DNA of 63,520 nt, the filler included, from Stramenopiles sp. TOSAG23-2 (taxonomy: Eukaryota): the NCBI GenBank assembly GCA_900128395.1. It is 7 parts of 7 records of this genome, joined end to end, with 100 filler letters (N's around TTAATTAATTAA, not from the genome) between each part and the next. Parts side by side here need not be neighbours in the genome. Positions count along the whole stretch, not along the records: positions 27,626 to 55,110 come from LT649416.1; 6 more parts are not named here. One strand, 5' to 3'. The notes beneath the pieces are model-generated. The model saw only the letters and a program-made list of their open reading frames with translations. It ran no database searches and was not told the DNA's origin. Below are positions 32,369 to 55,522 of the stretch, one piece after another. Made by a program: the position numbers and the translations under genes. How positions within the stretch are numbered: the stretch's first letter is position 1; the number at the start of each line of letters is the position of its first letter.

Positions 32369-32958
32369 TAAATATATATATTACGTCAATATAATTTAAT
32401 ATATATAAATATATATATATATACTTGCTTTAATTTAGTATAGAGTAAAGAGAAGAATGTACAATATTAACAGATACTGTAATCAATATATTTGTATTTA
32501 GATTGTTAAAACTATAAGAAGAAGAAAGATCCTTATAAGGATCTTATATTATATTATACCAGGTATATATTGGATCTTCTATGCACCTATAATAGCCAAC
32601 CTATATTTAGTTTGTTTGTTTGATATGAGGGCACATGTGGGGTTTGTAAAAATTTGTTTAAATAATAATATACTAAGAAGTATAATTACCTATGAAGTTA
32701 ATAAAAATGTTTTTTTTTACACTTCTCAATGTGCCAATAAATATTTGATGATGTCACACATGTGTTGAAATAATATATAAAACACATTTTGATTCATATT
32801 AATATTTTTCAAATAATCTCTCTCTTCTCTAATTCATTTGTTTCTGTCTATATATATACTATACGTATATATATATACACACACATTGTAAAATAACATA
32901 AACGAAAATCATTTTTTTAATATTTTTTTCTAAAAATAAATTTCACGAATAATAAAAT

Positions 32959-35900
32959 CTAATAATGTTGAACATCCAGATTCTGACCAACGATCGATCC
33001 AATATTAGCAAATGCTTCATCGATTTCGGAACTGCTAGATATTTCAATGATTTCACCAATGCATTTATCCGCATTAGAGTTTGCAACATGTCGCATATCA
33101 TCTAATGCCTGCTTTTCCGTAACACCAACGGATAAAATAACGATATTGATTCTTAGTCGTTTGATTAAATTGCCGACTTGAGCAGGAGTAAATTTCTTTG
33201 ACTTATTGTCTTCCCCATCACTAACACATACAATCCATGAATCTACTTTTTTATTGTTGATGGAACCTTCCTTCAACATTTCAATCGCAGCACCTAATCC
33301 ATCCCACAATGCAGTGGCACGGCTTGGTTTTGATAAGTTGGCAATGATATCATATAATTTATCCTTATCACCTGTTAATTCGCACATTGTAGTTACACTT
33401 GAATTAAATCTAATAACAGCAGCTTTATCCATCCCTTGATACATATGGTCTCTAACTACACTAGTAATACCCTCACGTGCTCTGCGTATTTTACCACCCG
33501 ACATACTGCCACTATAATCAACGACGAATATGACATCTTTTGGATTTCCACCTCCAGTGGCTCCTTTATTTTTTGCTAATTCTTCTGCATAAGATTGGCA
33601 AAATTTCACAGACAATCGTTCAAAATTTCGATTGACAACGGCTTCCATTCTAATAAAGATTTGTGCAATAGTATATTTTTTAGTTCGCTGACTGCATGAT
33701 AATGCTTCTTTGAACAAACTTAATGCTTGCATATCATGCCGTTTTTGTGGATCATTTGCCATCATAGTTGCAGCATCAATCAAACCGTTTTGAAATGCTT
33801 GAAATAATTCTTCTTCTTCTTGATACTGAGACTTAGAACGTTTAAGCTGGTCTCTAGTCATTCCTTGAAGTCTTTCTGCTGTTAATTCAGCATGTTCAAA
33901 CATTGCAACACGGTTACGCAATATATTTAATTGCCCCATAACTTTTTTTTCAGCAAGTTGATATTGACCCAAACCAAATAAAACTTCGCCATATAAACCA
34001 ACTCTAGCACTGTACCCAAGTAAGTTATTCGTATTTGTATCTAACATCAATGCTTGCTCGAGCATAATTTTAGCTTGATTGTATTTATTTAACTGCGCTG
34101 TGTCGACAAGTAATTGCGAATAATGATGTAAACGGGCTGCTAATTTATCAGCCATGTCATTACCAATTAAACGTTTTGGAATTCTTACGTCTTGATCTTC
34201 ATCAATTCTTGCCGAATCATCTGAACTTTGCTGTTGCATGACGGGATCCATCATGATTGGAGCTACGGCCATTGGCTGCCCTTTCCCACTTTGCTGCCCA
34301 CCACCTCTAGTTTGCAATTCAATCCCACCTGGATTGATAGGAACAACGAATTCCTCATCATCTTTCCCATTATTATTCAATAAGGAATTCCATATCTCGT
34401 TTCCATTGTCAATTGAAAGTTTATAAAAATTTTCCGCATCTGCGTATGCTCGCATATTCTGTTTCTCACTTTGCAACCATATTTTGTGGGAAATGACACC
34501 TAAATTGAACGTAGCAATTCCTTCCCCTCTTACATTGGACAAAGATTTAAACATATTTCTAGCTTCATCGTATATCATAAATGCCGATTTCAAATCGTTT
34601 TTCGCAGCACTCTCAGAACCAAACCGTAATGCCATTAACATATGCTCAAAACTTTCTTTCATCATGGACACTTCTTTACAACCTTCATCCTCTGGTTTAA
34701 TTAAATCATTCACATGAAGTTCAAATCTACCAACCTCACCACGATTTTTTTTCCCTCCACGCCTTTTATTCGGTTGACGAGCATCCGCCTCGTCTCTTGC
34801 AATATCCCTAATAATCAAATCGATAACACGAGTTAAAGATTGTACTGGTAACACAACAAAATGCGCAACTTCAACTTGCATCCAAATAAAAATAAGCGAA
34901 GAGACAACAACCATAGCGATAAATATGCCAACTTGAGTTTCTACTATAGAGGCTATCAACTTTTCAACTTGCGTAGCTGGTAATCGTATATCGGTATCCG
35001 GGACTACAAATGCTAATGTGTATTTTGGTGTTTTCACCGGTGCATATGCAATATGCCATACATTATCACTTTTATTATATGTACCTAATGAAGGTACTGT
35101 TAATGGATCAATCAATCTTTTATATATGTCATTTACAAATGCCGTAGCTTCAAAATCATTAGCACTTTTAAATTCCCATCGGATTAATTGAGTATTACCA
35201 CTATCAATATCAGCAGCGGCTAATCCAGGATAAACAACTAATTTCCCAGCATCTTCTATATTTGGTTTACCATATTCTTCATATTTATAACCTTGATCTG
35301 CTGTTACTAAATATGCATATCCATGTTGCAATACTTTTGCCGATAAGACAATTTGAGCCAAACGTGCAATAGAAACATCATACCCAACAACAGCTAAAAG
35401 TTTGTTGTTATTATCATAAATCGGTGTCGATACGGTAATAACCAATTCATCTGTCGTCGCATCAACGTATGGTGGTGTTACCATCGTTTTCCCAGCTTGC
35501 TCACATTGCCAATACCATGGACGATGCCTTGGATCATAGCCACTGCGTGTTATGCCATCCCTTGCTGATTTTCGATCTTTAGTTACTCGACCTGCGGAAT
35601 GTCCATATGGAAATGTACGAAAGACGCCATGCCCATGTGTTCCAATATACATAAATTCAATTGCTTCATTGGACAGAAAAGTTTGTTGAAACAATTCACT
35701 TATATACGAAGTTAATTTAATCTCTTCAAGAAGGGCACTGTCTAAATTCTTAACATCGCGAAATTCATATGCTGGATCTGGTACGCATGGAGTGCCTTTA
35801 CCCCCTTCACAGTTACCTGTAGCACCTCCTTGGGATGGACCCATTTTCCCCGTTGCTCGTGGATGCGGCCAATAGATACCAGTCGTTTTTAACGAGATAG

Positions 35901-36432
35901 TTAATTTTTCAGCACTTGTAACTTGCCCAGCACCTTCCACGACACGGCCAGCAGTTAATGGAATTTCTGGATCAAACCAACAATTTTTTAATACATTTTG
36001 GTTCTGTATTTGGGAACATACATTCGAATTGGGAGGGGGGCTTTGTTCAATTAGCTTCATATCATATTGCAATTTATTAACTTCAGTAAGTGACACAGGT
36101 AATGTAAATTGGTATCCACCTTCCGGCATAACATTATTTGTTGCTGAAAATTTTTTATTCAATATTTTTGTGGCAAAGTCTTGTGCCATATTTGCCTCAT
36201 CAAACATTTGTCCCATAATCTCTTCAGCAAATCCAGCTTGTGCAATAGCAAGACGTTGCAATGACTCCGTTTCTTCCTTCTCTAATGATTTCACAACTGG
36301 TACCATCCATTTCGTAGCATTTAATTCAATTAAACTAACACTGACAGCTATAATAATGATAATTCCAGTTAACAAGGGGACACCCGTAGCCACACGTAGA
36401 ATAGTTTTTAACGAGTTGTTCTGTAAACACAT
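32959..36432 (-). CDS. Receptor A: TM-dCache(amino-acid motif)-TM-HAMP-like-TPR-vWA
   Basis: N-terminal TM; YDPRHRPWY...PPYVD...VVGYDVS; TM2 then LPVQSLT...EVSMMKESFEHML (HAMP-like); TPR-like helices; vWA with DYSGS, T and SDGED (MIDAS). Confidence 0.85.
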   Translation of the reverse strand: MCLQNNSLKTILRVATGVPLLTGIIIIIAVSVSLIELNATKWMVPVVKSLEKEETESLQRLAIAQAGFAEEIMGQMFDEANMAQDFATKILNKKFSATNNVMPEGGYQFTLPVSLTEVNKLQYDMKLIEQSPPPNSNVCSQIQNQNVLKNCWFDPEIPLTAGRVVEGAGQVTSAEKLTISLKTTGIYWPHPRATGKMGPSQGGATGNCEGGKGTPCVPDPAYEFRDVKNLDSALLEEIKLTSYISELFQQTFLSNEAIEFMYIGTHGHGVFRTFPYGHSAGRVTKDRKSARDGITRSGYDPRHRPWYWQCEQAGKTMVTPPYVDATTDELVITVSTPIYDNNNKLLAVVGYDVSIARLAQIVLSAKVLQHGYAYLVTADQGYKYEEYGKPNIEDAGKLVVYPGLAAADIDSGNTQLIRWEFKSANDFEATAFVNDIYKRLIDPLTVPSLGTYNKSDNVWHIAYAPVKTPKYTLAFVVPDTDIRLPATQVEKLIASIVETQVGIFIAMVVVSSLIFIWMQVEVAHFVVLPVQSLTRVIDLIIRDIARDEADARQPNKRRGGKKNRGEVGRFELHVNDLIKPEDEGCKEVSMMKESFEHMLMALRFGSESAAKNDLKSAFMIYDEARNMFKSLSNVRGEGIATFNLGVISHKIWLQSEKQNMRAYADAENFYKLSIDNGNEIWNSLLNNNGKDDEEFVVPINPGGIELQTRGGGQQSGKGQPMAVAPIMMDPVMQQQSSDDSARIDEDQDVRIPKRLIGNDMADKLAARLHHYSQLLVDTAQLNKYNQAKIMLEQALMLDTNTNNLLGYSARVGLYGEVLFGLGQYQLAEKKVMGQLNILRNRVAMFEHAELTAERLQGMTRDQLKRSKSQYQEEEELFQAFQNGLIDAATMMANDPQKRHDMQALSLFKEALSCSQRTKKYTIAQIFIRMEAVVNRNFERLSVKFCQSYAEELAKNKGATGGGNPKDVIFVVDYSGSMSGGKIRRAREGITSVVRDHMYQGMDKAAVIRFNSSVTTMCELTGDKDKLYDIIANLSKPSRATALWDGLGAAIEMLKEGSINNKKVDSWIVCVSDGEDNKSKKFTPAQVGNLIKRLRINIVILSVGVTEKQALDDMRHVANSNADKCIGEIIEISSSSEIDEAFANIGSIVGQNLDVQHY

Positions 36433-37301
36433 TTTCTTCTTTTTTATTTCAACAAATTTAGTTAAAGCGTAATGCAGTAATGTAGTAATTTGTATTTGTT
36501 ATATGCGTTCGTTTGTCAACATATATATAACGTCTCTCCTCTCGCGATATAGTCTTTCTTTAATTATCCTCTTTTTCTAGTTATTTATTCAAAATGTATA
36601 ACCTAGATAACCGGGTGGTGGTGCATAATAGCGATACATTAAAGTGCGTGATGATACATGGGTGCAAAAAAGTGCTCTTCCGTGTGAGGTTAAATTTTGG
36701 TGAGCGTTTAATTCTATTAATACTGTGTTCATGTTAAAAAGCACTATAAACGAAAACCCAAAACAAATTAAATTAAAAATTTCGAATTTTTCTAGAAGAA
36801 TCTGTTTGGTGACACAACAACGTGCATAAAAATTTGACTTTATTGTAAAATAACTTTTTGTATTAATACTATGTCTACTATATAATACTGACAAAAAGTA
36901 CGATTGGTTTTGCAATAAATAATATATTTGAAATTTCCATAAAATTCAAATTGGCCCCTATTATGCACATATAATACATCTGTATTTATTGGTTATTATT
37001 GGGGTATAGTTCATAGTGCCATACCAGGCATACAAACATATATATATATATATATACTATAGACTATACAATTTTTGAATAAATCTAGTAGAATAAAAAG
37101 GGATAATTAGAAAAATAAGATTATAAGATATATACATATATATAAAACCGTATTATATAGTAGAATATATATATTTATATTTTTTGTTGTTGTTAAAATA
37201 TCAATCATTTACTGACATTTAAAAAAAAAACGTATTACAGGTATATAATAAAAAATATCATTTTGAAAGAATAAATAAATATATAATTATTATATCTAAA
37301 C

Positions 37302-39157
37302 ATGGCAAACCGAAGAAAAAAAGAGAACAATCAATACAAACAAAAAAATTTGTGGGTGCATAAGTGTCAATTTACGAAATTACACTATCAAACAACAAAT
37401 CAGTACCGGTCTTATATCAGTCTCGTTTATCATATTACTTTCCTTGTGCTTGGTCAGTATTATATCAATTGTTGATCTTGGAAACCAAACTTCAAAAGCG
37501 GCCATGGACAATTTAAGATTACAGATCGAAACAAATGCTAGAAATTTCTCTACGTTAAATGCAGATGAAATCAGTGCCACTTTGCAACGCAGGGCAGCTG
37601 CAGCAAATTTGATTGCATATGCTATGAGTGATTTTTACTTAGCCACGGAACTAACATTTGATAAGGATGCGATATCCTACTTTGATGAACAAGTGACAGC
37701 TGGTTCACCAGTCCCAGGGGTTACGTTTAATAAGAACGATAATAACTTTCCATTGTATAAAACAAAGGAAACATCGAGTTATTATATACCTAAAACAACT
37801 AATACTACAGCAGGCACACCAGCGCGAGCACGATTGAATGGTTGCTATTTACCAAAAGGAGATACGCTTCGACAATATGGAACTCCAATGGATGAGTCAG
37901 GTTGTAAAGAGTTAACAACGGTGTTAGCAAGTGACCCATTGTTGGTGAAACAAATTCAACGTAGCGTAAAAATCAATCGTTACTTTAAAGATTTTTCAAA
38001 AAAAATTCCTGATATCTATGCAATATACTTTGGCTTCCGTTCATCTGGCCTATTTAGACAGTTCCCTGGGAGTAATGACAACTCAGACGGAAACACTCCA
38101 CGTACGTATGATCCAAGAAAGCGACCATGGTATTTAGATGCAATGAATGGAAAGAAATACGCATCAAGTACAACAGGGGCATGGTTTGGCCAAACGATTA
38201 TTACAGCACCATATCAAGATTTTTGGAGTAAAGTATGGATGGTAACAGTTGCAAAAGCAGTTTACGATGACGTCAAAAATTTAGTAGGTGTATTAGGAAT
38301 TGATGTTAGCATCAAAACCATACAAGATGAAATTCTTAAAGTACATTTCTTAGAATCAGGTTATGTTATATTGACTGAATCTGCATCGAGATCAGCAAGC
38401 AATATGAAAGAAAGACTTGTCGTTTCTGCGCCAAATTTTGAAAGTTACGTTACAAATGGAAATGTATATTTTAAAGATGTACTGCCATCCGTTGCAAGCA
38501 ATTCCACGTTATTCAATAGTTTGTGGTCGGAAACAAATGTCAAATATTACTCAGAACGGGAAAATGATGAAGAAAAAAACTATTTACTTGCATATAGCAG
38601 TGCTGGCAGCACAATGTTTCGTGAACGGTATACTGTTTTTATAGTTATTCCGGAAGGGGAAGCATTAGGCGTTTTGCCAACATTAGAAAAAACAATTCTT
38701 GAAACAATAGAGGAAGTTGTTGGAATTGTCAGCGCAACTTCCATTACTACTGGTCTTGTCACTTTATTGATAATTATTACGGTAACAAATTCGATATCAA
38801 AGCCTGTACAAGCAATGGTTCAAATAGCTCAATCCATTGTCAAAGGTGCAGCTGAACAGAATTTAGTGAAAGACTTTGAAAGACAAGAACGAGCAATGAA
38901 AGCAGTACGTGATTATGCCGGAGTGAAAGAAGGCTTTACAAATGCTGATGCAGGAAGGAGAAAAAATTAATAATGAGATGCAATTATTGGCAAGGAGTTT
39001 TTTGACGATGACTAGTGGTTTGAAACGAGATGCCAATCGAGAGAAAGCACTTGTTAAGCATCCAATTAATCCATATCACATGGATCAAGAAAGTGAATTT
39101 ATGGGTGATTTTATAGATCAAAATTTAGCAGTGGAAGTTGAAGCAAAACAAATGTAA
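37302..39157 (+). CDS. Receptor B: TM-dCache(amino-acid motif)-TM-HAMP-like with short tail; two +1 frameshifts in A-runs (37316-37322, 38961-38966)
   Basis: Reconstructed MANRRK-RTINTNKKICGC...TM1; YDPRKRPWY...APYQD...VLGIDVS; TM2-SISKPVQAMVQIA...NEMQLLARSFLTM. Confidence 0.8.
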
Positions 39158-39503
39158 TTTAACATGTGGAGTTTTTTTTTAGAGGAGATTTAAAGCGAAT
39201 GATCAAACTACGAACTCCAGTTCGTATATTGGAATATATATTTTTTACGGAATATATGATATTAGAAATGTTTAATTTTTTTAATTACGTCCCGTAAAAA
39301 ACAAAAGTAAAAAATATTAACACAGATACGCGAGAGTATTTATTATAAAAATCTACGACGTATGTGTATGATATTTGTAATACAAAGTGTATCATACGTA
39401 CTCGTATATATCATATCATACGCTTCAGTATCATACAATACCGAATATATTTTAATAAATATTTTAAAAAATCAGTGCACATATTTCCCGCCTCCCCGTT
39501 TTT

Positions 39504-41106
39504 TTATTTTTTATCCTCTTTTCTATCTTCTTCTTCGGTATCAAAACAACGAAGATTTTCCCTCACTTTCCCCGCTGCTACCCATTCATTTATAAAATCG
39601 TTTTTAGCCTCCTTTGATATATGTGCATTGAATCGTATATCGACTGTGGTTACACTTGTACTATTTAATGCATATGCTTTTAAAGCATCGAAACCTTCCA
39701 TACCAATCATATTACCACTCAATTCAATTTCTTCCAATGCCATTACATCTTCATTGTCTAACTTAACCAATTCGTTCACCAATGCTATTATACCATCTGA
39801 ACTAATGTCATTTTCTCTCAAATCCAATCTCGTCAGATTTCTAAAGCAAGGAGACTTTTCATCATCTGCAAGTGCAGCTGCAAGACTTTTAACCCCACCA
39901 TTGCCAATGTTATTACCTGCAATTGATAAGTCATCGAGCCTGGCTGTGTACGACATGCCTTGCAATATGGCATCAAAACCTTCTTCATTCATATTAATAA
40001 ACATCAAATTCAATATTCTTAACTTGTTGCATCGCTGAATGATTTTAAATAAGACTTTGCATCCCACCGGTCCAAGAGGATTTTTGCTTAAATTTAATAT
40101 TTCAAGGTTCCTCCAGTCACAATTTGAATCTAAAATAGTCTCTAAACCATATGGATCAACGTGGTTGTCTGATAAATTCAACATATTTAAATTTAAAACG
40201 TTTTTCAATATGAATTTAATTGTATCGCAATCTCTATTAATAATATTTTTCCCCGACAAATCCATGACATCATAATGACCACCTTCTAATTCTTTCTCAT
40301 TCGGTTTGCCAATCAACTGCCTGATTTTCCTCTGTTGTTTCTTAAGAAATGGGCGTTCCCATAAATATACTGAATATAAATGACAAAATACCATAAGCCA
40401 TGATATAATCAACGTTGGATACCAGAATAAGCCTATGATATTGTTCAATCCTTGATCGACCTTTGCATTCCTAAAAAAATCTTCACACCCATCCTCTACT
40501 GCTTCTTCTGAACATGCATTGAACATACCCCTTTTCCAAAAAAGATTGCTTTCATCGGCCATATGTTTCGGCATATGGCCCATAAAGACTGCAAAAATAA
40601 CAATCCAAACTAAGTTGAAAGACAGGATAACGCCTTTATAAACTATATTTTCCCCACTTTGATTTAAATAAAACCCGCCAAATAAAAACACAAAGCCACT
40701 TTGGATTACAGAAATGATCATTGCAACATCGTGGAAAATCATGATGGGAACATAAATGAAACCCATGAAGGCTAACAATGGTAAATGGATACATGTTAGC
40801 GTAGCGATTAGAATTAAAGTTGTTTCGATTTTCATCGCTTTGCGTCTCTGTTGGAAAAATGCAGTTGAAGTTAATCTCGCAAGAGTACTACTTAATCTCG
40901 CACGAATACCATCATCAATTTCATTATCACCATTTGCTAACTCTGCTTCTAAGATTACCCTTTCGTAATTTGTTTCTATAACAAAAATTTCTAATACTGC
41001 TATTAGCACCCTTTGCCAACATTTCTGGCCATAGATAGAACTTTCTACTAACATATGCTCTAATTTCCAAAGCAACATACCTATAGAAAATTCTATTAAT
41101 GCTAAT
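39504..41106 (-). CDS. Giant gene part 3: further TMs plus RI-like leucine-rich repeats
   Basis: LNLSDNHVDPYG, LNLSKNPLGPVG, LSIAGNNIGNGG, LDLRENDISSDG; overlaps part 2 in the +1 frame. Confidence 0.75.
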
Positions 41107-44100
41107 TATCAATAAGTTTAGGCAATATAATAAAACAAAAAGAGGGGGATTTAAAATATTTTGGATGAAAATATAGAAAAACCAAAACACGACTGGAAAA
41201 ACAAGTCGAAAATACTTTGAATGTGGCTCCATGTCGTCGTCTAGTATCCTTCTATCATTTTCCATTTGTGCATTAGGGAAAAGTTCATTATCTCTTTTCT
41301 TAACACAACATTTACAACCAAAGATGTGAACAAAAACACGCATTGGTTGGTAAAAAGGAAAGGTCAAGATGTGCATAATGGCGAATGGAAATGCAAGCGG
41401 TATGACCAACAATCTATTATACCATTCAACCTTATTATCTCCAGTACATTTTATTACCTTCCATACCTCTGGTAAATACATGCCATTTACCCCCGACATT
41501 TCCAAGTAACCTAAAACACCAGAAAAAACTATAAAGACAAACATAAATGCCTCTATTGCAAGTATTACTAACCCGAAAGAAAACCCTGCAATACCAACAA
41601 TAATTTGTACAACTATCATAAAAGATTTCCCAAGACATGGCATTAATGTTTCAATAGCAAAGTGTCCCAATGCCAGCGGGAAATATTGGAAAAACAGAAA
41701 ATGTTTAGTTGGAAATCCAACTTCACCATATTCTTTGAGTCGCTTATCTTTATATTTTTTATTATATTTTTGACTTGTTGCTTCACGCAAAAGCACAGTT
41801 GATCCACACAGCACATATTGTATTGGCATTGTTGCCAACCAAACTACAGACACAATAAAATATGCAGGAATTAGTGAGCCAGCATGGACTATGCCGCCTT
41901 TAAAGCTGAGACCATCTTCGAAGCAAGGGCCATATGGAGTGATCGAAATCACAATCAATAAAGGAATACAGATGCACCCACAAATTATTGCAAAAATAAT
42001 TGCAATGCCATATGCCATTCCTTTTAAAAATATTTTAATTACAACATCATAAGAAAACCATTTAAGTTGCCTCCAAAAAATAGAGAAGAAAAGTACATGT
42101 AAGTTCAATATAGAAGATGTGGATACTTGCATAATGAGCACGGATGGATCTGGGCTCAGCGCAGTCTCCATATTCTTCTCTACACCCATATGTACATCAT
42201 ACGCCATTTTGACAATATGTGGCTCAATATCTTGATATTTCTCAATATAATTAGCGTATACATCCTTTTCGACTTCATCATCGCCATCTTTACCAATGGC
42301 ATGTGGTACTACCTTTTCCTTGCTGCGCCCTTTATATTTACCACAGCAAATTGCTCTCCATGCTGCAACAACTATACCTTTCTCATCATTACTTTTTGCA
42401 AAACAAAAACAATAAAGGAACATCAACGGGAAAATAGCTAAGTTTGTGAACGGGTATATATGGAGTAAAATGGCGTACATGAAAAGGGCAAGTATTGTTG
42501 GGATAAGATCCCGTTTTTTGTCTTTAACGTTTCCAACACTTTCTATGAAAGTCCCAATCAATAGAACATTGGAACAAATTACAATACTCATGGCCAATGA
42601 TAAGGAGCCAGCAATTAATCCAAAAACAAGCAATATTAATCCAACGCATAAATAATATAATAATGAACCAAACAATTGGCCGATATTTTTGCCACATTTA
42701 CAGGTCGTATTTAGAATATCATTTAATCGTTCTGCCAAATGTTTCCATACTATATTCCAAATTTTATTCTCGAACGTTATGTTTGGATCAAAAAAATCAT
42801 TAAATAATTGAAATTTACAAACCAAAAGATTCAAAACAACCCCCAACAAGAAAAACGTAAAGAAATAAAATACAAATTGTATCGTTATTAATGTTGCATT
42901 GAACGCTATTTTAAACAAATTGGAACGAATATTTAATTTATCAGACTTCTTTAATCTGTTTGATTGCAACACCACTTTTAGTGCCTCTACAGTTTTTGCC
43001 ATGTCTTTTTCATTTGCTAAATATACTTTTGACAACAGCGCCTCATCAAACATGTTTAGTTCTAACAAAGCAAGATAGGCTTTATTGGAAGATATGCTTT
43101 TGTCGTCTTCCTCTTTTTCTCCATCTTCAATTGTATCTGCTTTGTCAGTAGTATCTGATAGCTCTTCTTCTACGTCAATATTGTCAAGATTTAGCATGGT
43201 TTCTTTCTCGTGCTTAAATTTTGACTTTACTTCCTTGAATTCTTTATATGCGCGCTTCGAGTTTTTAATCCACGTTCGCCATTGAATACAACCGAGTCTA
43301 ATAATTAATGACATAATACACATTGATACATAAAAGATGATTCTTACTGGAAGATAATATAGACTAAAAATCAAAAATTTCCCTGTAACATCGCGAATAA
43401 GGAATATCATTACAATTTTTGTTCCTTTCAAAAATTTTGATATAACCCAAATCGTACCAACGATAGTATGCACTATAATTTTACCAAGCATGGTAAAACA
43501 GTTGCTAGGAATCGCATAAAATTTCTGATAAAGACGTATCTCCTCAAGTCTGTTATCCAAACATTTTGCAATCTGTTTGTTTGTACGATTGCAAATAATT
43601 TTTTCCAGCCTCTTCAGAACGGCGTTTTGAGCTGTTTGCCTTAACCTGCTACGTCCAATCGAATTTGCATTAATAAAATCTGGTGTCTTTTTTAATTCTA
43701 GATACATCAGTGCCCCATACAATTTAAATATTGGTTCTTTTTTCTTCGTATTAAATTTATCACCATTATTTTCCATAAAGTCTATCAAAGCATTTTTATC
43801 ATTGTTTCTAAGTTTTTTTCTTTTGTGGCACCAACCAAGATCAAACATTAATTTTTTGAATTGTATACAGGTAATACATATCATAATTGTCATAAACAAT
43901 TGGAACGGAAAAACGATCAGGAAAAGAACACTTTCAAGGAACCATGGGATAAGAACCGCAAAGAATATTTTACTATATCTACCCGTGTCCGGATCTTTCA
44001 TGTCCTTATAATACTCCAACAGATTTCCACTGACAAAAACGACTATTACCATTGGAAATTGTATAATCACACAAAGAAACGTTACAATCCCACTTATTAC

Positions 44101-47100
44101 ATACACAATAATCCAGCCCATGTTTAGCAATATATTTTCTGCAAACCATTTTGAAAAATATACTAAAAATTCCTTGATCCAAAAAGAGATATCACCAATA
44201 TCTTCACTTCTACCATCTAAAGTTAGCATAAAATACTTGAATACACTTTCAAAAACTCGTTTATCCAATGGTATGGTTGCATCTGACAATTCATTAATCA
44301 GTAACCTGACATGCGTCAAATTGAAAAATATGAAGAGGGCCATTACCAATTGAAACGGTAAATATAGATAAAACAACACCGTAAGAACAAAATAACGAAC
44401 TAAAACCTCATTGTTCCATGGCATGGTAATTTCTAGAAAACGCTCAAATAATGTATCTTTGTCCTCCTCCTCCTCGCCTTCTTCCACCTCTGGTTTAGCT
44501 CCTTCAATAAAAAGTTGCTTCCATGCTTTAGACCAAAACAGTCTACCACAACAAGTAGTAAATAACATAATTATGGTCAGTAACCATAATGGTGACAAAA
44601 CCAGAAAGGCAATAAAAGAAAAGACACCTGCCAAGAAATTTAACGTGATGATGTAGAAAAGATTTCCATAAAATTCAAACCATGTCAACAACGCAACCCG
44701 TATCATGTCATCGAATGCTTTTCCTTCATCCTTTCCGGAAGCAAGGAAAATCTTTTGCACGCGTTCACGTGGCAGGATTTCCATTGCCAACAGTCTTTCC
44801 ATAGCAGCACCATCTTTGGTTAGCTTCCGTAATATATTAGTTTGCGCAGCTAATTCATTTTCACTTGACTTGGCATTATCCCCTTTCCCTTCATTGTCGT
44901 TCTCCTCTATTTTCTTTTCCTCGTCAGTCTCCGTTCCATCTTCAATATCAATGGTTTCATGATCCGAATCTTTCGGTCCAAACACTGTGCGGCGTATTGT
45001 AGTACTAGTCACAAATAACAGTGATGGTTTATTATTGTTTTCAAAAAAATGATCTTCTACACCATCTATGAATTCCATTAAATTGAAAATCGTACACGCA
45101 ATGACAATTGCCATTGCGATTTCAATTACAAATGATACAACTACGCATGTTAATGCCAAAATGAAACATAATATTCCAATTAGAGATATTACCATCGCAA
45201 CAATTGTATCAAAAACGTACAGCTTGAAGCAAGCACCAGCATTTTTCAAGCCCTTAGGACCTTCTTTGGCAACAGCAGCTTTGTACTTAATCATGACATT
45301 ATAAATATCTTTCATAATGCTTGCAAATTCACTCCCTATTACCCCAAAGCGTATTATCCATTTTTGATAAAGTGTTGTTCCCGGATCACAAAATAAGTTT
45401 TTACAAAGTCTTGGTATCCTATAGAAACTTAAAAAAATCACCACTAACATTAAAAGTTGACATGGGAGGACGAAAGCGAAAAATATAATAGTTAGAAACA
45501 AATACTCTACAGCAGAGAACATGTACCTGTGACTATTACTTAAATTCTTTCTCTTCAATTTGTTAACTAATTCCATACGATAAGGCCCCAAACAAACGAT
45601 TAGGCCGCTTATAACATTAAAAATACACATACAAGATACAGGGATCCATGACAATATAACAAGTAAAAGCCTTGAAGTCGAATTAAGAAAATAAATTGGA
45701 ACAATTGAATATAAACGTACATCTGTAAATCGTTCAAACCATCGATAGATATGTTCCGTATACTGTTTACGTATTTCAAAAGTCGATTGTTTCCGAATGA
45801 TTTCCATGTCCATCGTCTCTTCTATCTTCTCTTCGTCGGTGTTCGTTGGTTCTTTTTCCTTTTTTTCTTTATTTAATGTCTTCTTGTCTCGTTTTGGTTT
45901 CACAAATATTATTTTTTTGTTTCTCTTTTCAGTCCCATTTACCAGTTTGTAAATCGCCTTTGTCAGATCTTCAATATCATCTTCGACTTCCTGCTTATTT
46001 TCTTGGTTACTTATTAATATGCCTAAGCTTAAAAAGCGACCAATAAGATCAAATACTTGTGCTAAGAGAAACAATATAACTTCTAAGAAAAAATACGAAC
46101 CAATATGAATAAAAACCACAACAAGCATAATACTACGTATTATTCTCCAAGTAAAAACATACATTGCAACAATGAAACACTGCGGTATGATAATATACAT
46201 TTTTTCCATCCTACTTGATTCTTTGCTAAATAATTTTTCTAGGCATCGTTTAAATTCCACGTGTAGAGGCGAGGTAGCGATTAAAACGATTAAAAAAACA
46301 AATTCAACTGGCATCCAAAGCCATTGCAAGAAATATGTTTCGAGAAAATACTTTACAATGATAGACAATCTTGTAAATGGTAATGCTAGACTATATGGTT
46401 CGTAACCAGGTTTTTTGCCCTCCTCTACCAACTCATCGTAGCAATATTTCCATGTAATATGTTCATTCGGACCGAAAAAATAATACACGACCTCGCCGGG
46501 AGAAGGAATTAAAATTAAGATAAACAATACCGCACCAACTACATGCAACACAATTTGTACGACGCACCATGCTACGATTGCAATGTCAAATATAACTGAA
46601 GCACAAAACATTTTGGGAATGAGAACAAACCAAGCGTAAAAGTTAAGCGTTAGCCATTCGTTACACTTCCCTATAAACAGAGGCATTGTTAACATATTTA
46701 CGTGCGTTTTTTTAATTTCACTTAACGTTTTAGTACGATTGTATCCATTCTTGATATATACTTCAATGATCTCATCGTCCGTGATAGATTTCGTATAAGG
46801 CTTGAAATTAAGAACAAGTATATCTTTGCCTTCCTCCACCTTCTTTACGTCCGCTATTTTTGCATCCGTTAATTTCGAATCAACGGATATTGCCTTTGTT
46901 TTTTCATCTTCGTCGTTTGCTGTAGCATTGAACACATCCTTACTTTTCAATTCAATCCCTACAACTTGAGTCTCCGCATTTGTATTAGTAGTATTTTTGT
47001 CGTTGTTATCTCTTCCGAACCAAAAAGACTGTTCCTTGCTAACTTCAGAATATTCTTCTTTCCCTAAGATACACGTATACACTAGCATAATCATTTCAAT

Positions 47101-48804
47101 TGGGATCCATACCAAAGAAAAACTTGCGAAGATTATTAACAATGGCAGGTAAAGCACAAATATTATGAAATCGATAAGACTAAATAAAAATCTAGAAATT
47201 ACAGCAAACAGGCGTTCATTGAACGTGAAACGATTATACTTCATATCTAAAATAAATATTATATTTCCAAAATGCCATGGATTCAAGAAAGGTGTTACAA
47301 AGGCTAGCGGCACTGATACTAAGATCACCAAATCTTGGGCTATATTTATAAATAACATTGCAGGGAATGTAAAAAATATAAATACCCAACCAACAATTGG
47401 CTCCATCCAATTTTTATTTCGGAGGGCGCCAAACGTTGAGTCCTCACGATACCAATTGTAATTAAAATAAATCGGATTAGTAACTGCCAATAATAATAAG
47501 CAAACGCCAATCACAATAAAATATGCAGCAATTGCTGGAAAGAAAATAAAAATGAGGAAGCGTCGAAGTGCAATTAAACCATGAGTCCAAACGAACTTAA
47601 ACAATTTGTCTTCTCGATCCATATCCTTTGCATTCTTGTAATTCTTGACAAACTCAAAATAGTTATCCGTATCATAAATCGAGGTTATCAAAATAAGCGA
47701 AATGAAAAAAATATACGATGGAATCAAGAAGATATGAGCAAGCGCCTCACAAAAGTACGCGGTAGTTCCGAAGACGTATTTCCAAAACCAATCTCCTATT
47801 TTTTCCTCTGGTTTTATAATCAAATGTGCTTTTTTATTCATTATCTCATTCCTCCAGGCATCATATTCCACAGGACTTAGCCAAATGACGATTACCATGC
47901 AACTTTGTAATAAAAATAAACACAATAAAATTGGGGAAAATATGACCAGACTAAGTAGTTTTATCTGATGCATTAACTTTCCCTTTCCATCCCGTACAAA
48001 ACAACACATTGATATGGCGTATATAATAACCAAAACGATAAATACGATGAAGTAAACCCACCAAGGTATACATGGAAAATACCAAATGTCCATCTCACTT
48101 TTAAAATTTCCGCTGGATGGTACCGGTTGTGGGCATATACCTGCTAGTATTTTATTGGAGTTGCTTACATTTCCAGCTTTCAGCGACTGTGCGTAACATG
48201 AATGGACAGGCTCTTGACATCTAAAGTTTGTCCTTGTCGTAAATCGCGTTTCATCCTGTTCTGTTATAGGATTCTTGTATTTATAATGAATCAATGTAGC
48301 GTAGGAATTATCATCACTACATTTTCGCCCGTACAGGCACTCATTAAATGGGAAAATTTCGTTTGTGCATGTATCAATCTTCTCCATTCTTGCACATGGT
48401 GGATCAGCGCAGTGATAGCTGTTGTGGGGGGGATCTTCTTCATCGTCTATTTTGCAAGAATCTTCACTAGATTCATGCTTTGCTTTATCTTGTATGATTA
48501 AAATTGCGTTGGAGCCTGGGATACGTTTAGCTATTAGACCGTCACGTTTCTCATTTTTTACGATCATTTGCTCTGCGATTTGACTGGTCTCTAAGAATTC
48601 CATAGTGGACAAATCTTTGCAAAAACTATTCCCCCAATTTAAAGATCTTGCAACACATTTTTCCAATTTACCAATAGTAGGGGAACCAGTATCTCCTAAT
48701 AAAGCTTTGAATTTTTCTATCTCAGGGTGGTATATTAACGCACCACTTAAATCGACGACATAATATTGTGAAGAATCTGGTTTATAATGTTGCCCCCCCC
48801 CCAC
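40927..48804 (-). CDS. Giant gene part 2: end of second dCache, Cys-rich stalk, very long repetitive polytopic membrane region with UBA/CUE-like modules
   Basis: YYVVDLSGALIYHP continues the Cache domain across a G10 frameshift; dozens of hydrophobic segments separated by acidic loops. Confidence 0.75.
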   Translation of the reverse strand: MGGGQHYKPDSSQYYVVDLSGALIYHPEIEKFKALLGDTGSPTIGKLEKCVARSLNWGNSFCKDLSTMEFLETSQIAEQMIVKNEKRDGLIAKRIPGSNAILIIQDKAKHESSEDSCKIDDEEDPPHNSYHCADPPCARMEKIDTCTNEIFPFNECLYGRKCSDDNSYATLIHYKYKNPITEQDETRFTTRTNFRCQEPVHSCYAQSLKAGNVSNSNKILAGICPQPVPSSGNFKSEMDIWYFPCIPWWVYFIVFIVLVIIYAISMCCFVRDGKGKLMHQIKLLSLVIFSPILLCLFLLQSCMVIVIWLSPVEYDAWRNEIMNKKAHLIIKPEEKIGDWFWKYVFGTTAYFCEALAHIFLIPSYIFFISLILITSIYDTDNYFEFVKNYKNAKDMDREDKLFKFVWTHGLIALRRFLIFIFFPAIAAYFIVIGVCLLLLAVTNPIYFNYNWYREDSTFGALRNKNWMEPIVGWVFIFFTFPAMLFINIAQDLVILVSVPLAFVTPFLNPWHFGNIIFILDMKYNRFTFNERLFAVISRFLFSLIDFIIFVLYLPLLIIFASFSLVWIPIEMIMLVYTCILGKEEYSEVSKEQSFWFGRDNNDKNTTNTNAETQVVGIELKSKDVFNATANDEDEKTKAISVDSKLTDAKIADVKKVEEGKDILVLNFKPYTKSITDDEIIEVYIKNGYNRTKTLSEIKKTHVNMLTMPLFIGKCNEWLTLNFYAWFVLIPKMFCASVIFDIAIVAWCVVQIVLHVVGAVLFILILIPSPGEVVYYFFGPNEHITWKYCYDELVEEGKKPGYEPYSLALPFTRLSIIVKYFLETYFLQWLWMPVEFVFLIVLIATSPLHVEFKRCLEKLFSKESSRMEKMYIIIPQCFIVAMYVFTWRIIRSIMLVVVFIHIGSYFFLEVILFLLAQVFDLIGRFLSLGILISNQENKQEVEDDIEDLTKAIYKLVNGTEKRNKKIIFVKPKRDKKTLNKEKKEKEPTNTDEEKIEETMDMEIIRKQSTFEIRKQYTEHIYRWFERFTDVRLYSIVPIYFLNSTSRLLLVILSWIPVSCMCIFNVISGLIVCLGPYRMELVNKLKRKNLSNSHRYMFSAVEYLFLTIIFFAFVLPCQLLMLVVIFLSFYRIPRLCKNLFCDPGTTLYQKWIIRFGVIGSEFASIMKDIYNVMIKYKAAVAKEGPKGLKNAGACFKLYVFDTIVAMVISLIGILCFILALTCVVVSFVIEIAMAIVIACTIFNLMEFIDGVEDHFFENNNKPSLLFVTSTTIRRTVFGPKDSDHETIDIEDGTETDEEKKIEENDNEGKGDNAKSSENELAAQTNILRKLTKDGAAMERLLAMEILPRERVQKIFLASGKDEGKAFDDMIRVALLTWFEFYGNLFYIITLNFLAGVFSFIAFLVLSPLWLLTIIMLFTTCCGRLFWSKAWKQLFIEGAKPEVEEGEEEEDKDTLFERFLEITMPWNNEVLVRYFVLTVLFYLYLPFQLVMALFIFFNLTHVRLLINELSDATIPLDKRVFESVFKYFMLTLDGRSEDIGDISFWIKEFLVYFSKWFAENILLNMGWIIVYVISGIVTFLCVIIQFPMVIVVFVSGNLLEYYKDMKDPDTGRYSKIFFAVLIPWFLESVLFLIVFPFQLFMTIMICITCIQFKKLMFDLGWCHKRKKLRNNDKNALIDFMENNGDKFNTKKKEPIFKLYGALMYLELKKTPDFINANSIGRSRLRQTAQNAVLKRLEKIICNRTNKQIAKCLDNRLEEIRLYQKFYAIPSNCFTMLGKIIVHTIVGTIWVISKFLKGTKIVMIFLIRDVTGKFLIFSLYYLPVRIIFYVSMCIMSLIIRLGCIQWRTWIKNSKRAYKEFKEVKSKFKHEKETMLNLDNIDVEEELSDTTDKADTIEDGEKEEDDKSISSNKAYLALLELNMFDEALLSKVYLANEKDMAKTVEALKVVLQSNRLKKSDKLNIRSNLFKIAFNATLITIQFVFYFFTFFLLGVVLNLLVCKFQLFNDFFDPNITFENKIWNIVWKHLAERLNDILNTTCKCGKNIGQLFGSLLYYLCVGLILLVFGLIAGSLSLAMSIVICSNVLLIGTFIESVGNVKDKKRDLIPTILALFMYAILLHIYPFTNLAIFPLMFLYCFCFAKSNDEKGIVVAAWRAICCGKYKGRSKEKVVPHAIGKDGDDEVEKDVYANYIEKYQDIEPHIVKMAYDVHMGVEKNMETALSPDPSVLIMQVSTSSILNLHVLFFSIFWRQLKWFSYDVVIKIFLKGMAYGIAIIFAIICGCICIPLLIVISITPYGPCFEDGLSFKGGIVHAGSLIPAYFIVSVVWLATMPIQYVLCGSTVLLREATSQKYNKKYKDKRLKEYGEVGFPTKHFLFFQYFPLALGHFAIETLMPCLGKSFMIVVQIIVGIAGFSFGLVILAIEAFMFVFIVFSGVLGYLEMSGVNGMYLPEVWKVIKCTGDNKVEWYNRLLVIPLAFPFAIMHILTFPFYQPMRVFVHIFGCKCCVKKRDNELFPNAQMENDRRILDDDMEPHSKYFRLVFPVVFWFFYIFIQNILNPPLFVLLYCLNLLIISINRIFYRYVALEIRAYVSRKFYLWPEMLAKGANSSIRNFCYRNKLRKGNLRSRVSKW

Positions 48805-51800
48805 ACTGCTTTATCAAATATAGATTTTAATGTTTCTACACTAAAATCTAAACCAGCGACTCCAGCAACAGTCTTATTTTCATCACTTAACACAGCAACC
48901 GATAAAGTCGAACACGGTTTTTTACTAAAGGTATCTATGTAAGTCGACAAACATGTCCACGTGGGATATTCTACGCTACGCATGTACCATGGCCGTTTTC
49001 TAGGATCGTAAAAGCGTGATTCGGGTGCGCCAGTCAATTTTCGGAAAACACCATTCGTTGTTCCAAAATATTTAGCAATGACCGATGTCCCTAAACCTGG
49101 ACGTTCTTTCCAACATTTTTCAACGGAGCGAGTTAAGAAAATATCTTCCAGTACACGAGGTCTTACCATTTTTTCAAAATCAAGACGTGCATCAAGCTCA
49201 TCGCTATTAATTAAGTCATTATACCGAGTTACGCGATCTACGCTTTCCTTTATTGAATGTCCTCGGTCCAAATCCCCTTGTTGAATATATAGGTACGGAT
49301 CACGATATGCACTGGATGCCAATTTCCAAACGCTTTCCTCAAACGTAACATTCGTCTGCGTATAATACCCTTCACAAGTAGGGAACCCAGAGTCAAAATA
49401 TGTATTAGGCGTTGGTACAACGTCTACACGATGGTACCAATCTTTGTAGTCCTTGCTTAATTTTGTCTGTGCATTGGTAACACTTCCAGGTTCAATGACA
49501 CGAATTTTTGCATCTTGATCTTCCAATACGAATGCCACGCTAAATTCAACCTTATCAACTTTCTTCCAATATATGTTTGCGCAAAATGTTAAATGCGTTG
49601 CTCCTTCCGCCGATGTCCCTCGTGGCATTAGCATTTGCATTTTTACGTATTTCGAACCGCTACCGCCAGCAGTCATGCTGTTACGAATTTCATTGATAAA
49701 AGTTTGATCCACGCCTTTTGAACTGTCCCAACTAGATGCAATCCCATCACATGATTGTAAAATCATCAAATCTTTGATATCCACAAATTTTGGATTTTTG
49801 CCATTTTTATCCTCAGGGGATGGCAGCGAGGGGTGATAAAGAACCCTGCCAGAAAAATCAATTAAGAACCCAAATGATTTTTTACCGTGATTTTTTGCAT
49901 CTGCTAAATCTTTGAAAATATCAGCAACTGCTAAATCAATGCCTGCAACACCAAAATAACGTTCTTGATCTTGCAAAATAAACGTTTCGTTTTTGGACAC
50001 ATCTTTATTCATATACATTGGTACTGCCCCGGTTATGACTACGCCTAAGCCTGAAAAATCGAAATATGGTAATGTCAAACGTACTCCTCCTTGTTGTGAT
50101 TCATACAAGTAATTCCCTGTCTCGTAGTAGGTGCCCATTTTGGACATCAAATCGCCAAAATTTTCATCCTTCACAAACACAGGTTTTATTACGGACATAT
50201 CTGAAATTTCAGATTGATATTCTTCCACGCCTGCACCTAATAAGAAGTTAAAGAGATCAGGTGGAGTTGCCATTTCACCGCTTAATTTTTCAATTAAAGC
50301 TTCTACTTGTTCGAAATTTTCTGTAACGCCTTCTTTCCCTGTTTTTGGCAATGTTGGAGCGCCATCTGTTAAAAATATAATAGCTGACTTACGAGAACTT
50401 AATGTTTTTCTTGAATTTAAATATTCAAATGCCGTAGTAAATGCAGCATGGTAATTTGTTTTGCCATTAGGTGCAATAGTCTCGATAAAATGGTTTAAAA
50501 ACTCTTTGTTGTGATGATTTGCTGGTGCTAAATTTCTAGTGCCTTCTTCTATCGATCCTCTGTAATCGATTGTTTTGCGAGCACCGGCCGTGCAAACATA
50601 ATCAAATGGATCACTTTCCAATTTGCTTTTCCATAATTTATTTTCTAGACTATTAGGATCTTCAAGGCAGCACAAATAGGCGTCTCCACGCCCGCGGCAA
50701 TGGCGGGCATCTTCCAGTTTGAAAGCTTTGTAATCCTTATTATTATTGCAAGTAGTAGCACCACAACAGTCAGAATTATCACACAAATCAACCCTGCAGT
50801 TGCGGGGTCCAGTCGTTGGAAAATGCACTACATCACTAAACGATATAACTGCAACACGATCATCATCATTCAACGTTTTTAAAACTTGTTTGGCAGCTTT
50901 TTTTGCATATTTCATACGATCGTACTCCAACATACTACCACTGCTGTCGATGATGATGACAATATCTTTTGGTTCACCAGCAGCTTTAACATACCATGGT
51001 CGTGTACGTGGATCATATGCAGGAATATCCGTTAAAAAATACAACCAAACCCACATAAGTAATAGCGGCAAGGCAAATCCAACCAACCAATATGCAGTGC
51101 ATTTTTTGCCCAGGCCTCTACCACCTGTTGTAGCTTCATCATCACCATCATCATTATTCTTATCTAAAACAACTTTATTTATCTGTGGAAAAATCACAAA
51201 AGTTGAGATGTAAAATAATGAAAAGATAGAAAGGGCCCAAAATACAATTACGGCAATTAACCCCCCGGACATTTCTTGTCCAAAATTATTTGAACCATTC
51301 GCATCAATAAATTCGCCATCTTCTGTTATATCACGCCGAAACCCTACTAACAATGCCAATGTAAAAGGAACGTAATCAAGCCAAAACAATAAAAGAGCAA
51401 TCCATGCCATAGCCCTTTTCTCATATAATTGACCAGTTTCAATAGTTTCAGATTGAAAATGGACCAAATCTTCCTCAGCAAGCGTCTCATCATCGTTCTC
51501 ATTTTCTTCTTCTCTTTCATGATCCCTATCACCACGCACTTTAAAAGTTTCTTTTTTCAGTTTAAATGTTTTTTGTTCATTGGTCATCGCTCGTAATTCT
51601 CGACTGGGCATTTTCATCAACCGTTTTCCATTTTCACTTTTTCCAATCAAAATTATGCCATAATAATCTTTGATGAAATAAATCCACCATATATGGAAAA
51701 TTATTGTTGGCAACACAAGTAGCGTTAAAGCAAATATCAATACACGAAATGTCGGTGTAAAATTGCGGCCAGTAGATATGCCTAGTATTCTATCCCTTCG

Positions 51801-55280: not shown

Positions 55281-55517
55281 ACATTAAAGCATGATATAGT
55301 GTTACGGGTATGGAAGACAAGAGGGAAACGGATCGCTGACGTACAATTTATAGGGACGAAGGAGAATGTCCTTGCCGATGCTTTATCAAGATTTGATATG
55401 GAAACATTCAACAAAATAACTAACAATTTACCATTTAATCTCGTGGAACTTCAGATACAAAACAGAATTACAGTAGACTGGACGAGAGCCGTAGAAGAGA
55501 TGATGAAGTACACTTAG
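55281..55517 (+). CDS. Retroelement RNase H C-terminal fragment
   Basis: IGTKENVLADALSR (N-x-x-ADALSR motif). Confidence 0.7.
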   Translation, partial: TLKHDIVLRVWKTRGKRIADVQFIGTKENVLADALSRFDMETFNKITNNLPFNLVELQIQNRITVDWTRAVEEMMKYT

Positions 55518-55522
55518 ATCCT

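What the first reader, a model, noticed from the sequence alone, without database searches (positions are those of the whole stretch)
32959..39157. Head-to-head pair of chemoreceptor-like receptors: one with TPR-vWA output, one with none (possible heterodimer)
Seen: both genes read TM-dCache-TM-HAMP-like and diverge from a shared 869-bp intergenic region (36433-37301). Receptor A continues into TPR and vWA; receptor B stops about 45 aa after HAMP helix 2. Established: HAMP is a dimeric four-helix bundle and dCache receptors signal as dimers. Inference: a bidirectional promoter could co-express an obligate A/B heterodimer, with B as co-receptor or dominant-negative modulator.
Basis: partly seen in the sequence, partly recalled or inferred. 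Interest (0 to 1): 0.75.

Follow-up and report, generated by a model that had tools for sequence, protein, structure and literature searches.

The report
Asgard-type two-subunit sensor in protist
A marine protist carries two neighbouring genes for a bacterial-style membrane sensor, one with a protein-docking tail and one without, and the same two partners sit side by side in Asgard archaea and are fused into one protein in other protists, so they probably form one two-subunit amino-acid receptor that eukaryotes may have inherited from their archaeal ancestor.

Summary
The pair is real. A (1157 aa) is TM-dCache-TM-HAMP-TPR-vWA. B is TM-dCache-TM-HAMP with a tail of about 41 aa. B's two frameshifts are absent from RNA contigs of two studies and from two further contigs, so B is intact (617 aa) in the population. 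Both subunits keep the full dCache amino-acid motif; A's vWA keeps MIDAS.

The pairing is ancient. B-type follows A-type in 75 of 75 Asgard loci with room, lies next to A-type in 2 of 2 giant-virus contigs, and is fused B-then-A in this genome's paralog and in 17 of 150 representatives. Asgard-only profiles sort 44 of 44 eukaryotic modules by role. Eukaryotic A nests among Asgard A. Best reading: an A/B heterodimer with one enzyme-free output (0.75, inferred).

Head-to-head orientation is not the conserved feature, and 869 bp is ordinary spacing here, so a special bidirectional promoter is unsupported.

My paper searches found no description, and the family contradicts a published claim that every eukaryotic dCache_1 protein has an inserted VWA. 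This scan found the system before, on Asgard DNA (three notes). New here is an unfused eukaryotic pair whose B is intact in RNA data.

The parts
32959..36432 (-). Receptor subunit A, 1157 aa, single open frame: TM-dCache_1-TM-HAMP-TPR-vWA
   Evidence: P0001 is 98% identical, 115 members
35377..35538 (-). A: dCache amino-acid-binding motif Y299, R304, W306, Y322, D352
   Evidence: motif definition from PMC8915833
34615..34935 (-). A: TM2 (residues 500-518) and HAMP-like helix-connector-helix with a long connector insert
   Evidence: low confidence in the single-chain model
33553..34614 (-). A: TPR-type helical repeats with one disordered insert
   Evidence: TPR Pfam hits in co-linear relatives
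32983..33540 (-). A: cytoplasmic vWA domain with complete MIDAS (D972, S974, S976, T1040, D1072)
   Evidence: each residue kept in 116-118 of 118 aligned relatives
36433..37301 (.). 869-bp divergent intergenic region, 25% GC; ordinary spacing for this window
37302..39157 (+). Receptor subunit B, 617 aa in the population: TM-dCache_1-TM-HAMP-short tail, no output domain
37342..37348 (+). A7 run with one base more than in the other samples that cover it (first frameshift in this assembly)
   Evidence: X3, X5; L077, L078
38107..38304 (+). B: dCache amino-acid-binding motif Y270, R275, W277, Y305, D335 (P0028 numbering)
38722..39031 (+). B: TM2 and HAMP (helix 2 lies beyond the second frameshift)
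38961..38966 (+). A6 run with one base more than in the other samples that cover it (second frameshift in this assembly)
   Evidence: X3, X5; L077, L078
39068..39079 (+). B tail N-P-Y-H motif; N-[PS]-[FY] is kept in most eukaryotic and giant-virus B modules
   Evidence: 24 of 28 such modules, counted from the printed segments; 0 of 28 Asgard B by the script's four-letter pattern

Best explanation
A and B are the two unlike subunits of one plasma-membrane receptor. SHOWN here: domain order, intact B in the population, full dCache amino-acid motif in both subunits, intact MIDAS in A's vWA, no enzyme domain in either, conserved pairing, natural B-A fusions, and A/B role identity shared with Asgard archaea. 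FROM ESTABLISHED KNOWLEDGE (recalled): dCache_1 receptors signal as dimers, and HAMP folds only as a two-chain four-helix bundle. INFERRED: (1) A and B pair through their stalks, TM helices and one mixed HAMP bundle. (2) An amino acid binding in either or both distal Cache pockets shifts TM2 and the HAMP. (3) Because only A continues, the dimer carries a single TPR-vWA arm; the HAMP change repositions the TPR solenoid and switches access to the vWA metal site, recruiting or releasing a cytoplasmic partner instead of making a second messenger. (4) B's N-P-[FY] tail is a eukaryotic addition that either clamps onto A's last TPR repeats or serves as a sorting signal. The family most likely came vertically from the Asgard ancestor of eukaryotes (about 0.65). 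The two extra bases in this assembly are most likely amplification or assembly errors, or at most a private allele of the source.
For: B intact: RNA contigs of two studies (X3 37174-39419, 0 substitutions; X5 37136-39255) lack exactly the two bases, as do contigs L077 and L078; P0028 is a 618-aa full-length B with 67 members, and the near-full-length relatives at 41-68% identity also stop shortly after HAMP. Pairing: B-type directly after A-type in 55 of 60 Thorarchaeota-type loci, the other 5 ending at or within 134 bases of a contig end, and in 20 of 20 more divergent Asgard loci, gaps 2-14 nt; adjacent in 2 of 2 giant-virus contigs with a full A. Fusion: this genome's paralog L015 encodes a B-like then an A-like module; 17 of the 150 best representatives are long two-module B-A chains, falling at three places in the A tree. 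Role identity: profiles built only from Asgard ectodomains assign 44 of 44 eukaryotic modules by role (window A 183 vs 120 bits; B 172 vs 103) and 4 of 4 giant-virus modules. The AlphaFold model of the natural fusion fragment P0178 has both HAMP halves at pLDDT 78-91 and isolated two-residue strands at the B tail (147-148) and in A's TPR (946-947) (coordinates not seen). Origin: eukaryotic A modules form one clade (SH-aLRT 98.3) inside Asgard A; named members span stramenopiles, Trimastix, a chytrid and an 'ANDGO' locus tag; the best hit of Trimastix A is a Heimdallarchaeota protein, E 5e-64.
Against: Neighbourhood and fusion show functional coupling; they do not fix the stoichiometry, and a fused chain could itself dimerise. 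The Asgard loci are related, so 75 of 75 is far fewer independent events. The B side of the tree is weak (B clade 76.3, eukaryotic B 32.9; not monophyletic), and there are many long branches. One member of a cluster that lies in the Asgard clade next to eukaryotes is labelled Deltaproteobacteria (P0206); most representatives are unnamed and bacteria were not surveyed genome-wide. X1, the possible source, carries both extra bases. The Asgard propeller partner was not found in this genome with one query, so the output partner in the protist is open. Most Asgard subunits lack the motif arginine, so the ligand class is not constant across the family. No other protist genome showed the unfused pair in synteny: L082 has only 1 kb upstream and no A match there.
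Confidence: 0.75

Rival explanations
1. A/A and B/B are separate homodimers that work together in a higher-order array, as mixed chemoreceptor clusters do; B broadens ligand range and signals laterally to A.
For: Most known dCache-HAMP receptors are homodimers (recalled). Adjacency and fusion are also compatible with a dimer of fused chains.
Against: Asgard B ends a few residues after HAMP helix 2 in 47 of 48 complete Thorarchaeota-type copies, leaving no cytoplasmic surface for array contacts of the chemoreceptor kind; fusion order is B then A in all 15 fusions scored; A- and B-specific ectodomain features persist from Asgard to protists.
Confidence: 0.13
2. B is a decoy or dominant-negative subunit that titrates active A/A dimers.
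For: B has no output domain and is a separate gene here, so it could be regulated apart from A.
Against: A fixed 1:1 fusion (L015; 17 of 150 representatives) would silence the receptor for good; Asgard gene gaps of 2-16 nt suggest coupled, near-equal synthesis; B keeps all five ligand residues in 14 of 14 eukaryotic copies aligned.
Confidence: 0.07
3. B is a pseudogene and the head-to-head pair is a local duplication remnant.
For: Two frameshifts in the window, also present in run X1.
Against: Both are absent from X3, X5, L077 and L078; A and B are not sister sequences but belong to lineages split before the Asgard-eukaryote divide; other homopolymer frame breaks occur in this window.
Confidence: 0.02
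4. On origin only: the pair reached protists by horizontal transfer (from Asgard archaea, unsampled bacteria or through giant viruses) and spread sideways, rather than descending from the last eukaryotic common ancestor.
For: Two giant-virus contigs carry the pair; distribution among named eukaryotes is sparse; one Deltaproteobacteria label; weak backbone support within eukaryotes.
Against: All named eukaryotic, fused and giant-virus A sequences fall in one 106-tip clade (FastTree 0.99), next to an Asgard clade with a Hodarchaeales-named member; the giant-virus copies nest inside that clade; 27 presumably bacterial dCache receptors score at most 96 bits on the Asgard profiles against about 200 for A and B.
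Confidence: 0.3

Closest known systems
dCache_1AA chemoreceptors PctA/PctB/PctC (Pseudomonas aeruginosa), Mlp24/Mlp37 (Vibrio cholerae)
   Same: TM-dCache_1-TM-HAMP input; complete AA motif in A and B; top solved ligand-binding-domain matches by fold and by profile.
   Different: No MCP signalling domain; the output is TPR plus MIDAS-vWA on one subunit only; two fixed, unlike subunits.
dCache_1 sensor histidine kinases, diguanylate cyclases, Ser/Thr kinases and phosphatases (PMC8915833, Fig. 6 legend read)
   Same: Same sensor and HAMP relay.
   Different: No enzymatic domain in A or B.
Calcium-channel alpha2delta subunits and CACHD1
   Same: Eukaryotic dCache_1 with AA motif plus a vWA domain; profile hits at E about 1e-22.
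   Different: There the VWA is extracellular and inserted inside a nested double dCache (PMC8915833). Here the Cache is uninterrupted and flanked by two TMs, and the vWA lies after TM2, HAMP and TPR, on the cytoplasmic side.
Asgard dCache-HAMP-TPR-vWA receptor pair noted earlier by this scan (e1-5517776, e1-5477299, e1-5646273; unpublished AI notes)
   Same: The same family; A and B of this window are its eukaryotic A-type and B-type members.
   Different: Here eukaryotic, unfused, head-to-head, both subunits with the motif arginine, B with an N-P-Y tail; no propeller or arginine decarboxylase gene among the window's ORFs scanned.
Obligate heterodimeric receptors with one signalling subunit, e.g. 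GABA-B (recalled, no call)
   Same: Works like it: two related subunits, one output.
   Different: No homology; a different membrane and output architecture.

Membership tests
dCache_1AA amino-acid sensors | dCache_1 domain | tested here: met
   PF02743 on B 48.7 bits (cut-off 45) and on A 44.1 bits, E 2.4e-11 (45.2 with neighbours); fold matches to PctA/Mlp24
dCache_1AA amino-acid sensors | AA motif YxxxxRxW ... Y ... D | tested here: met
   A: Y299 R304 W306 Y322 D352; B: Y270 R275 W277 Y305 D335. In B the W-to-Y spacing is 28, longer than the 13-17 given for prokaryotes
dCache_1AA amino-acid sensors | Binds amino acids | not testable with these tools
   needs thermal shift or calorimetry
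Methyl-accepting chemoreceptors | Cytoplasmic MCPsignal hairpin | tested here: not met
   no such Pfam hit on A, B or P0028; TPR-vWA in its place
HAMP-containing receptors | HAMP directly after TM2 | tested here: inconclusive
   no direct Pfam hit on A or B; hits on aligned Asgard B and Trimastix A; co-linear profiles; helix-connector-helix at pLDDT 78-91 in the fusion model
alpha2delta / CACHD1 | VWA inserted inside a nested double dCache, extracellular | tested here: not met
   A's vWA starts at residue 965, after TM2; the Cache is uninterrupted; B has no vWA
Asgard-eukaryote Cache-HAMP-TPR-vWA pair (undescribed) | Full-length co-linear homology of A to Asgard A-type | tested here: met
   ESM Atlas Thorarchaeota cluster 0.98
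Asgard-eukaryote Cache-HAMP-TPR-vWA pair (undescribed) | Adjacent or fused output-less B-type partner | tested here: met
   B scores 172 vs 103 bits on Asgard B vs A ectodomain profiles
Asgard-eukaryote Cache-HAMP-TPR-vWA pair (undescribed) | Linked beta-propeller gene as in Asgard loci | tested here: inconclusive
   not found with one query in an incomplete genome
MIDAS-type vWA domains | DxSxS ... T ... D | tested here: met

The most novel reading that the evidence does not exclude
The last eukaryotic common ancestor had a prokaryote-style, two-subunit dCache-HAMP amino-acid receptor inherited from Asgard archaea, which signals with no enzyme at all, through a ligand-switched TPR-vWA(MIDAS) docking arm on one subunit. 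It survives, split or fused several times over, in stramenopiles, metamonads, a jakobid and a chytrid, and has been picked up by giant viruses. This window holds an unfused copy in an uncultured marine protist.
Probability: 0.45. Interest if true: 0.92.

Novelty: new variant of a known kind. Interest (0 to 1): 0.8.

Why it matters
How protists sense dissolved amino acids is largely open (my knowledge, no call). Gumerov et al. 2022 (PMC8915833) state that all eukaryotic dCache_1 proteins carry an inserted VWA, that the domain came from bacteria, and that dCache_1AA proteins were not detected in fungi. This family has an uninterrupted Cache, nests among Asgard sequences and includes a chytrid protein with the first half of the motif. 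If the reading holds, it adds a surface receptor to the inventory that eukaryotes took from archaea and a new, enzyme-free output for HAMP signalling. It is directly testable: both ectodomains can be expressed for ligand screens, and cultivable protists carry members.

Tried and rejected
Intron explanation for B's second frame break (a 49-nt GT..AG stretch at 38906-38954 would fit): rejected, the RNA contigs cross it with one missing base and no joint. Special bidirectional promoter: no support, the spacing is ordinary and the orientation varies across loci. RNA cover of A: X3 covered only 35928-36511 and X5 next to nothing; a filter drops records, so this is no evidence either way. That A is in RNA runs is inferred from word shares of 0.75-0.83 over 32500-39400 in 16 RNA runs, of which B's contig explains about a third. 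DNA run X2 did not cover B. Runs X21-X24 held next to no words. GenBank phages: no match to P0019. Atlas look-up of B was not possible. The fold search of the fusion model was dominated by vWA and Cache domains, and no listed chain has the whole architecture; this is not evidence of a new fold. Literature: seven searches answered plus one on HAMP heterodimers; by their listings none describes this family. One search on amplification artefacts timed out, so the idea that whole-genome amplification adds bases in homopolymers is recalled only. The first treekit run gave no answer; the trees are FastTree and a fast IQ-TREE run with SH-like support only, with no AU test or mixture model.
Full report
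OBSERVATION. Gene A runs from ATG 36432 to 32959 on the minus strand as one open frame of 1157 aa. It has hydrophobic helices at 17-35 and 500-518, and Pfam hits to dCache_1 (E 2.4e-11) and VWA (E 1.5e-15). Gene B starts at ATG 37302 and ends at TAA 39157; in the window its frame breaks at an A7 run (37342) and an A6 run (38961). Pfam finds dCache_1 on B. HAMP and TPR are not hit directly on either gene. They are assigned through relatives, through a profile alignment of the two families that runs from TM1 to the end of HAMP helix 2, and through the model of A (mean pLDDT 68, HAMP region under 50).

B IS INTACT IN THE POPULATION. Twenty of 24 listed runs hold 0.75 or more of the sampled words of 32500-39400, 16 of them RNA. 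I laid 4 of them. X3 and X5, RNA runs of two studies, each give one contig across all of B, and each lacks one base at 37342 and one at 38961; X3 has no substitution in 2244 letters. X1, the possible source, keeps both bases; X2 did not cover B. Contigs L077 (6.4 kb, with A and B head-to-head as here) and L078 also lack both bases. P0028 is a full-length B of 618 aa with 67 members; 12 further B relatives were listed, and the 9 aligned with it share an almost invariant HAMP helix 2 and tail and end there. No joint was seen, which rules out an intron at either site. Two other genes in the window break at homopolymers, so an amplification or assembly error is likelier than a private allele; I could not tell these apart.

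THE PAIRING IS ANCIENT. A's relatives include 11 archaeal-type proteins of 742-963 aa, five named Thorarchaeota or Promethearchaeota; seven were aligned and are co-linear with A from TM1 to the C-terminus. A scan of GTDB returned 60 such loci. In 55 a TM-Cache-TM-HAMP gene follows on the same strand, 49 of them 6-16 nt away; the other 5 loci end at or within 134 bases of A's end. Of 48 complete copies, 47 stop a few residues after HAMP helix 2; L053 has an extension. A profile of A matched 137 of 400 genomes of that phylum. I picked 20 of the more divergent loci, from 19 genomes; all 20 have A then B, 2-14 nt apart, 3 with extra C-terminal domains on B. These loci share ancestry and are not 75 independent events. 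Two giant-virus contigs hold a full A, and both have a B-type gene beside it: head-to-head in L171 (23% identity to window A), B then A in L174.

FUSIONS. A paralog in this genome (L015, G000:C3550) encodes a B-like module followed by an A-like module, about 1613 aa across one GT..AG intron that splits the Cache motif. Among the 150 best representatives of an exhaustive profile search, 17 are 1356-2134 aa long with two receptor modules before TPR-vWA, and P0178 is a fragment of another; one is from Mallomonas annulata. To avoid circularity I built profiles from Asgard sequences only (26 A, 28 B) and cut them at TM2. They assigned 44 of 44 eukaryotic modules by role: 5 A, 6 B, both modules of 15 fusions (P0171, P0172 and P0178 were left out) and 3 pieces of L015, and 4 of 4 giant-virus modules. 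Twenty-seven presumably bacterial dCache receptors reached at most 96 bits, with no A/B preference, against 206 and 197 for A and B. In the tree of 159 A-type sequences the fusions lie at three places, with weak backbone support, which suggests more than one fusion event.

STRUCTURE HINT. AlphaFold on the natural fusion fragment P0178 (B's TM2-HAMP-tail plus all of A) gave pLDDT 82 and pTM 0.53, with both HAMP halves at 78-91. Isolated two-residue strands appear at the B tail (147-148) and in A's last TPR region (946-947) and may pair with each other; I saw no coordinates, and the alignment differs from that, so this is a lead only. N-[PS]-[FY] follows HAMP helix 2 in 24 of 28 eukaryotic and viral B modules (counted from the segments printed), and the script's related pattern found 0 of 28 Asgard B. 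NPF and NPxY are also known endocytic motifs (recalled), which is a second possible role.

LIGAND AND OUTPUT. Both subunits carry all five residues of the amino-acid motif defined in PMC8915833. The arginine is present in 14 of 14 eukaryotic B but only 3 of 36 Asgard B rows, where it is mostly acidic; Asgard loci often lie next to a PLP-dependent decarboxylase of the Orn/Arg family and a beta-propeller gene. An amine ligand in Asgard and an amino acid in the protist is an inference. The vWA MIDAS residues are each kept in 116-118 of 118 sequences, which argues for a metal-dependent docking site. One propeller query found nothing in this incomplete genome.

ORIGIN. In a 68-module IQ-TREE run (fast, LG+F+G4, SH-aLRT), A plus B separate from the 11 outgroup receptors at 99.3; A is a clade at 92.4, with all eukaryotic and viral A at 98.3 inside Asgard A; B is weak (76.3; eukaryotic B 32.9), and B was not monophyletic under FastTree. 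Window A and B are not sisters. In the larger FastTree, a 106-tip clade (0.99) holds every named eukaryote and lies next to an 11-tip clade of Asgard loci with a Hodarchaeales-named protein (support 0.54 for that pairing, 1.0 with one more tip). A's nearest named relative is from the stramenopile Platysulcus tardus (0.997). Other named members are Trimastix marina, the chytrid Irineochytrium annulatum, a locus tag ANDGO (Andalucia godoyi, recalled) and Heimdall-, Odin- and Hodarchaeal proteins. Against a clean picture: one cluster member in the Asgard clade is labelled Deltaproteobacteria, most tips are unnamed, and bacteria were not surveyed genome-wide.

The 869-bp gap is like the window's other divergent gaps (846, 859, 1303, 820 bp), and orientation differs among operon, tandem, head-to-head and fused forms. 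What is kept is the partnership, not the promoter geometry.

LITERATURE. I read parts 1-4 of 5 of PMC8915833 (all main text) and searched its supplements for six terms (first places only, so an architecture row could be missed). It says all eukaryotic dCache_1 proteins have an inserted VWA and traces them to transfer from bacteria; this family does not fit. Of PMC5847659 I saw 8 passages; none mentions this system. Other papers were seen as listings only; none describes it. Subscription journals are mostly not searched. Three earlier notes of this scan describe the same pair from Thorarchaeota DNA; my reading was recorded before I saw them, they are not independent support, and one led me to scan viral contigs.

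VERDICT. A real and conserved two-subunit receptor family, most likely an A/B heterodimer with a single enzyme-free TPR-vWA output (0.75). Known input, undescribed output and pairing: a new variant of a known kind, interest 0.8.

Noticed in passing
window 40927-52526 (-): A very long gene with an alpha2delta/CACHD1-like N-terminus (VWA_N, VWA, dCache_1) that seems to continue across a frame break at a G run near 48800 into a 2627-aa hydrophobic frame with no Pfam hit. A third dCache gene within 2 kb of B, of the other (inserted-VWA) type.
   Followed up: partly
window about 28190 and about 24760-24885: Two further frame breaks: one at a short A/G run between ORFs with EGF repeats, one at a near-tandem 20-nt repeat at the end of a chromodomain SNF2 helicase ORF. 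They suggest indel errors in this assembly.
   Followed up: partly
L016:1-4749 (+) (G000:C2302): A 1582-aa frame with a weak dCache_1 hit near its start, followed by what looks by eye like an EF-hand and ion-channel repeats: possibly a Cache sensor fused to a two-pore-type channel.
   Followed up: no
L021:6502-7941 and L021:12384-14234; similar in many of L017-L076 and L151-L170: Asgard pairs are often flanked by a beta-propeller gene with a zinc ribbon and by an Orn/Arg-family decarboxylase; most Asgard subunits have an acidic residue in place of the motif arginine.
   Followed up: partly
P0083 (2134 aa), residues 89-269: A fused B-A receptor with an N-terminal PARP-like catalytic domain (E 5e-11): an enzyme added on the cytoplasmic N-terminus.
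   Followed up: no
L157:4063-5697, L158:7110-8860, L163:293-2290: Three Asgard B subunits carry C-terminal additions (zinc ribbon/RING-like or HEAT repeats), so B's tail can gain domains.
   Followed up: no
L171:5651-10457 and L174:5808-10214: Giant-virus contigs encode a complete A/B receptor pair nested among eukaryotic sequences: possibly captured host sensors.
   Followed up: partly
window 55439-56500 (+): A 353-aa frame with a weak tyrosine-recombinase (Phage_integrase) hit, E 0.006, next to assembly gaps.
   Followed up: no
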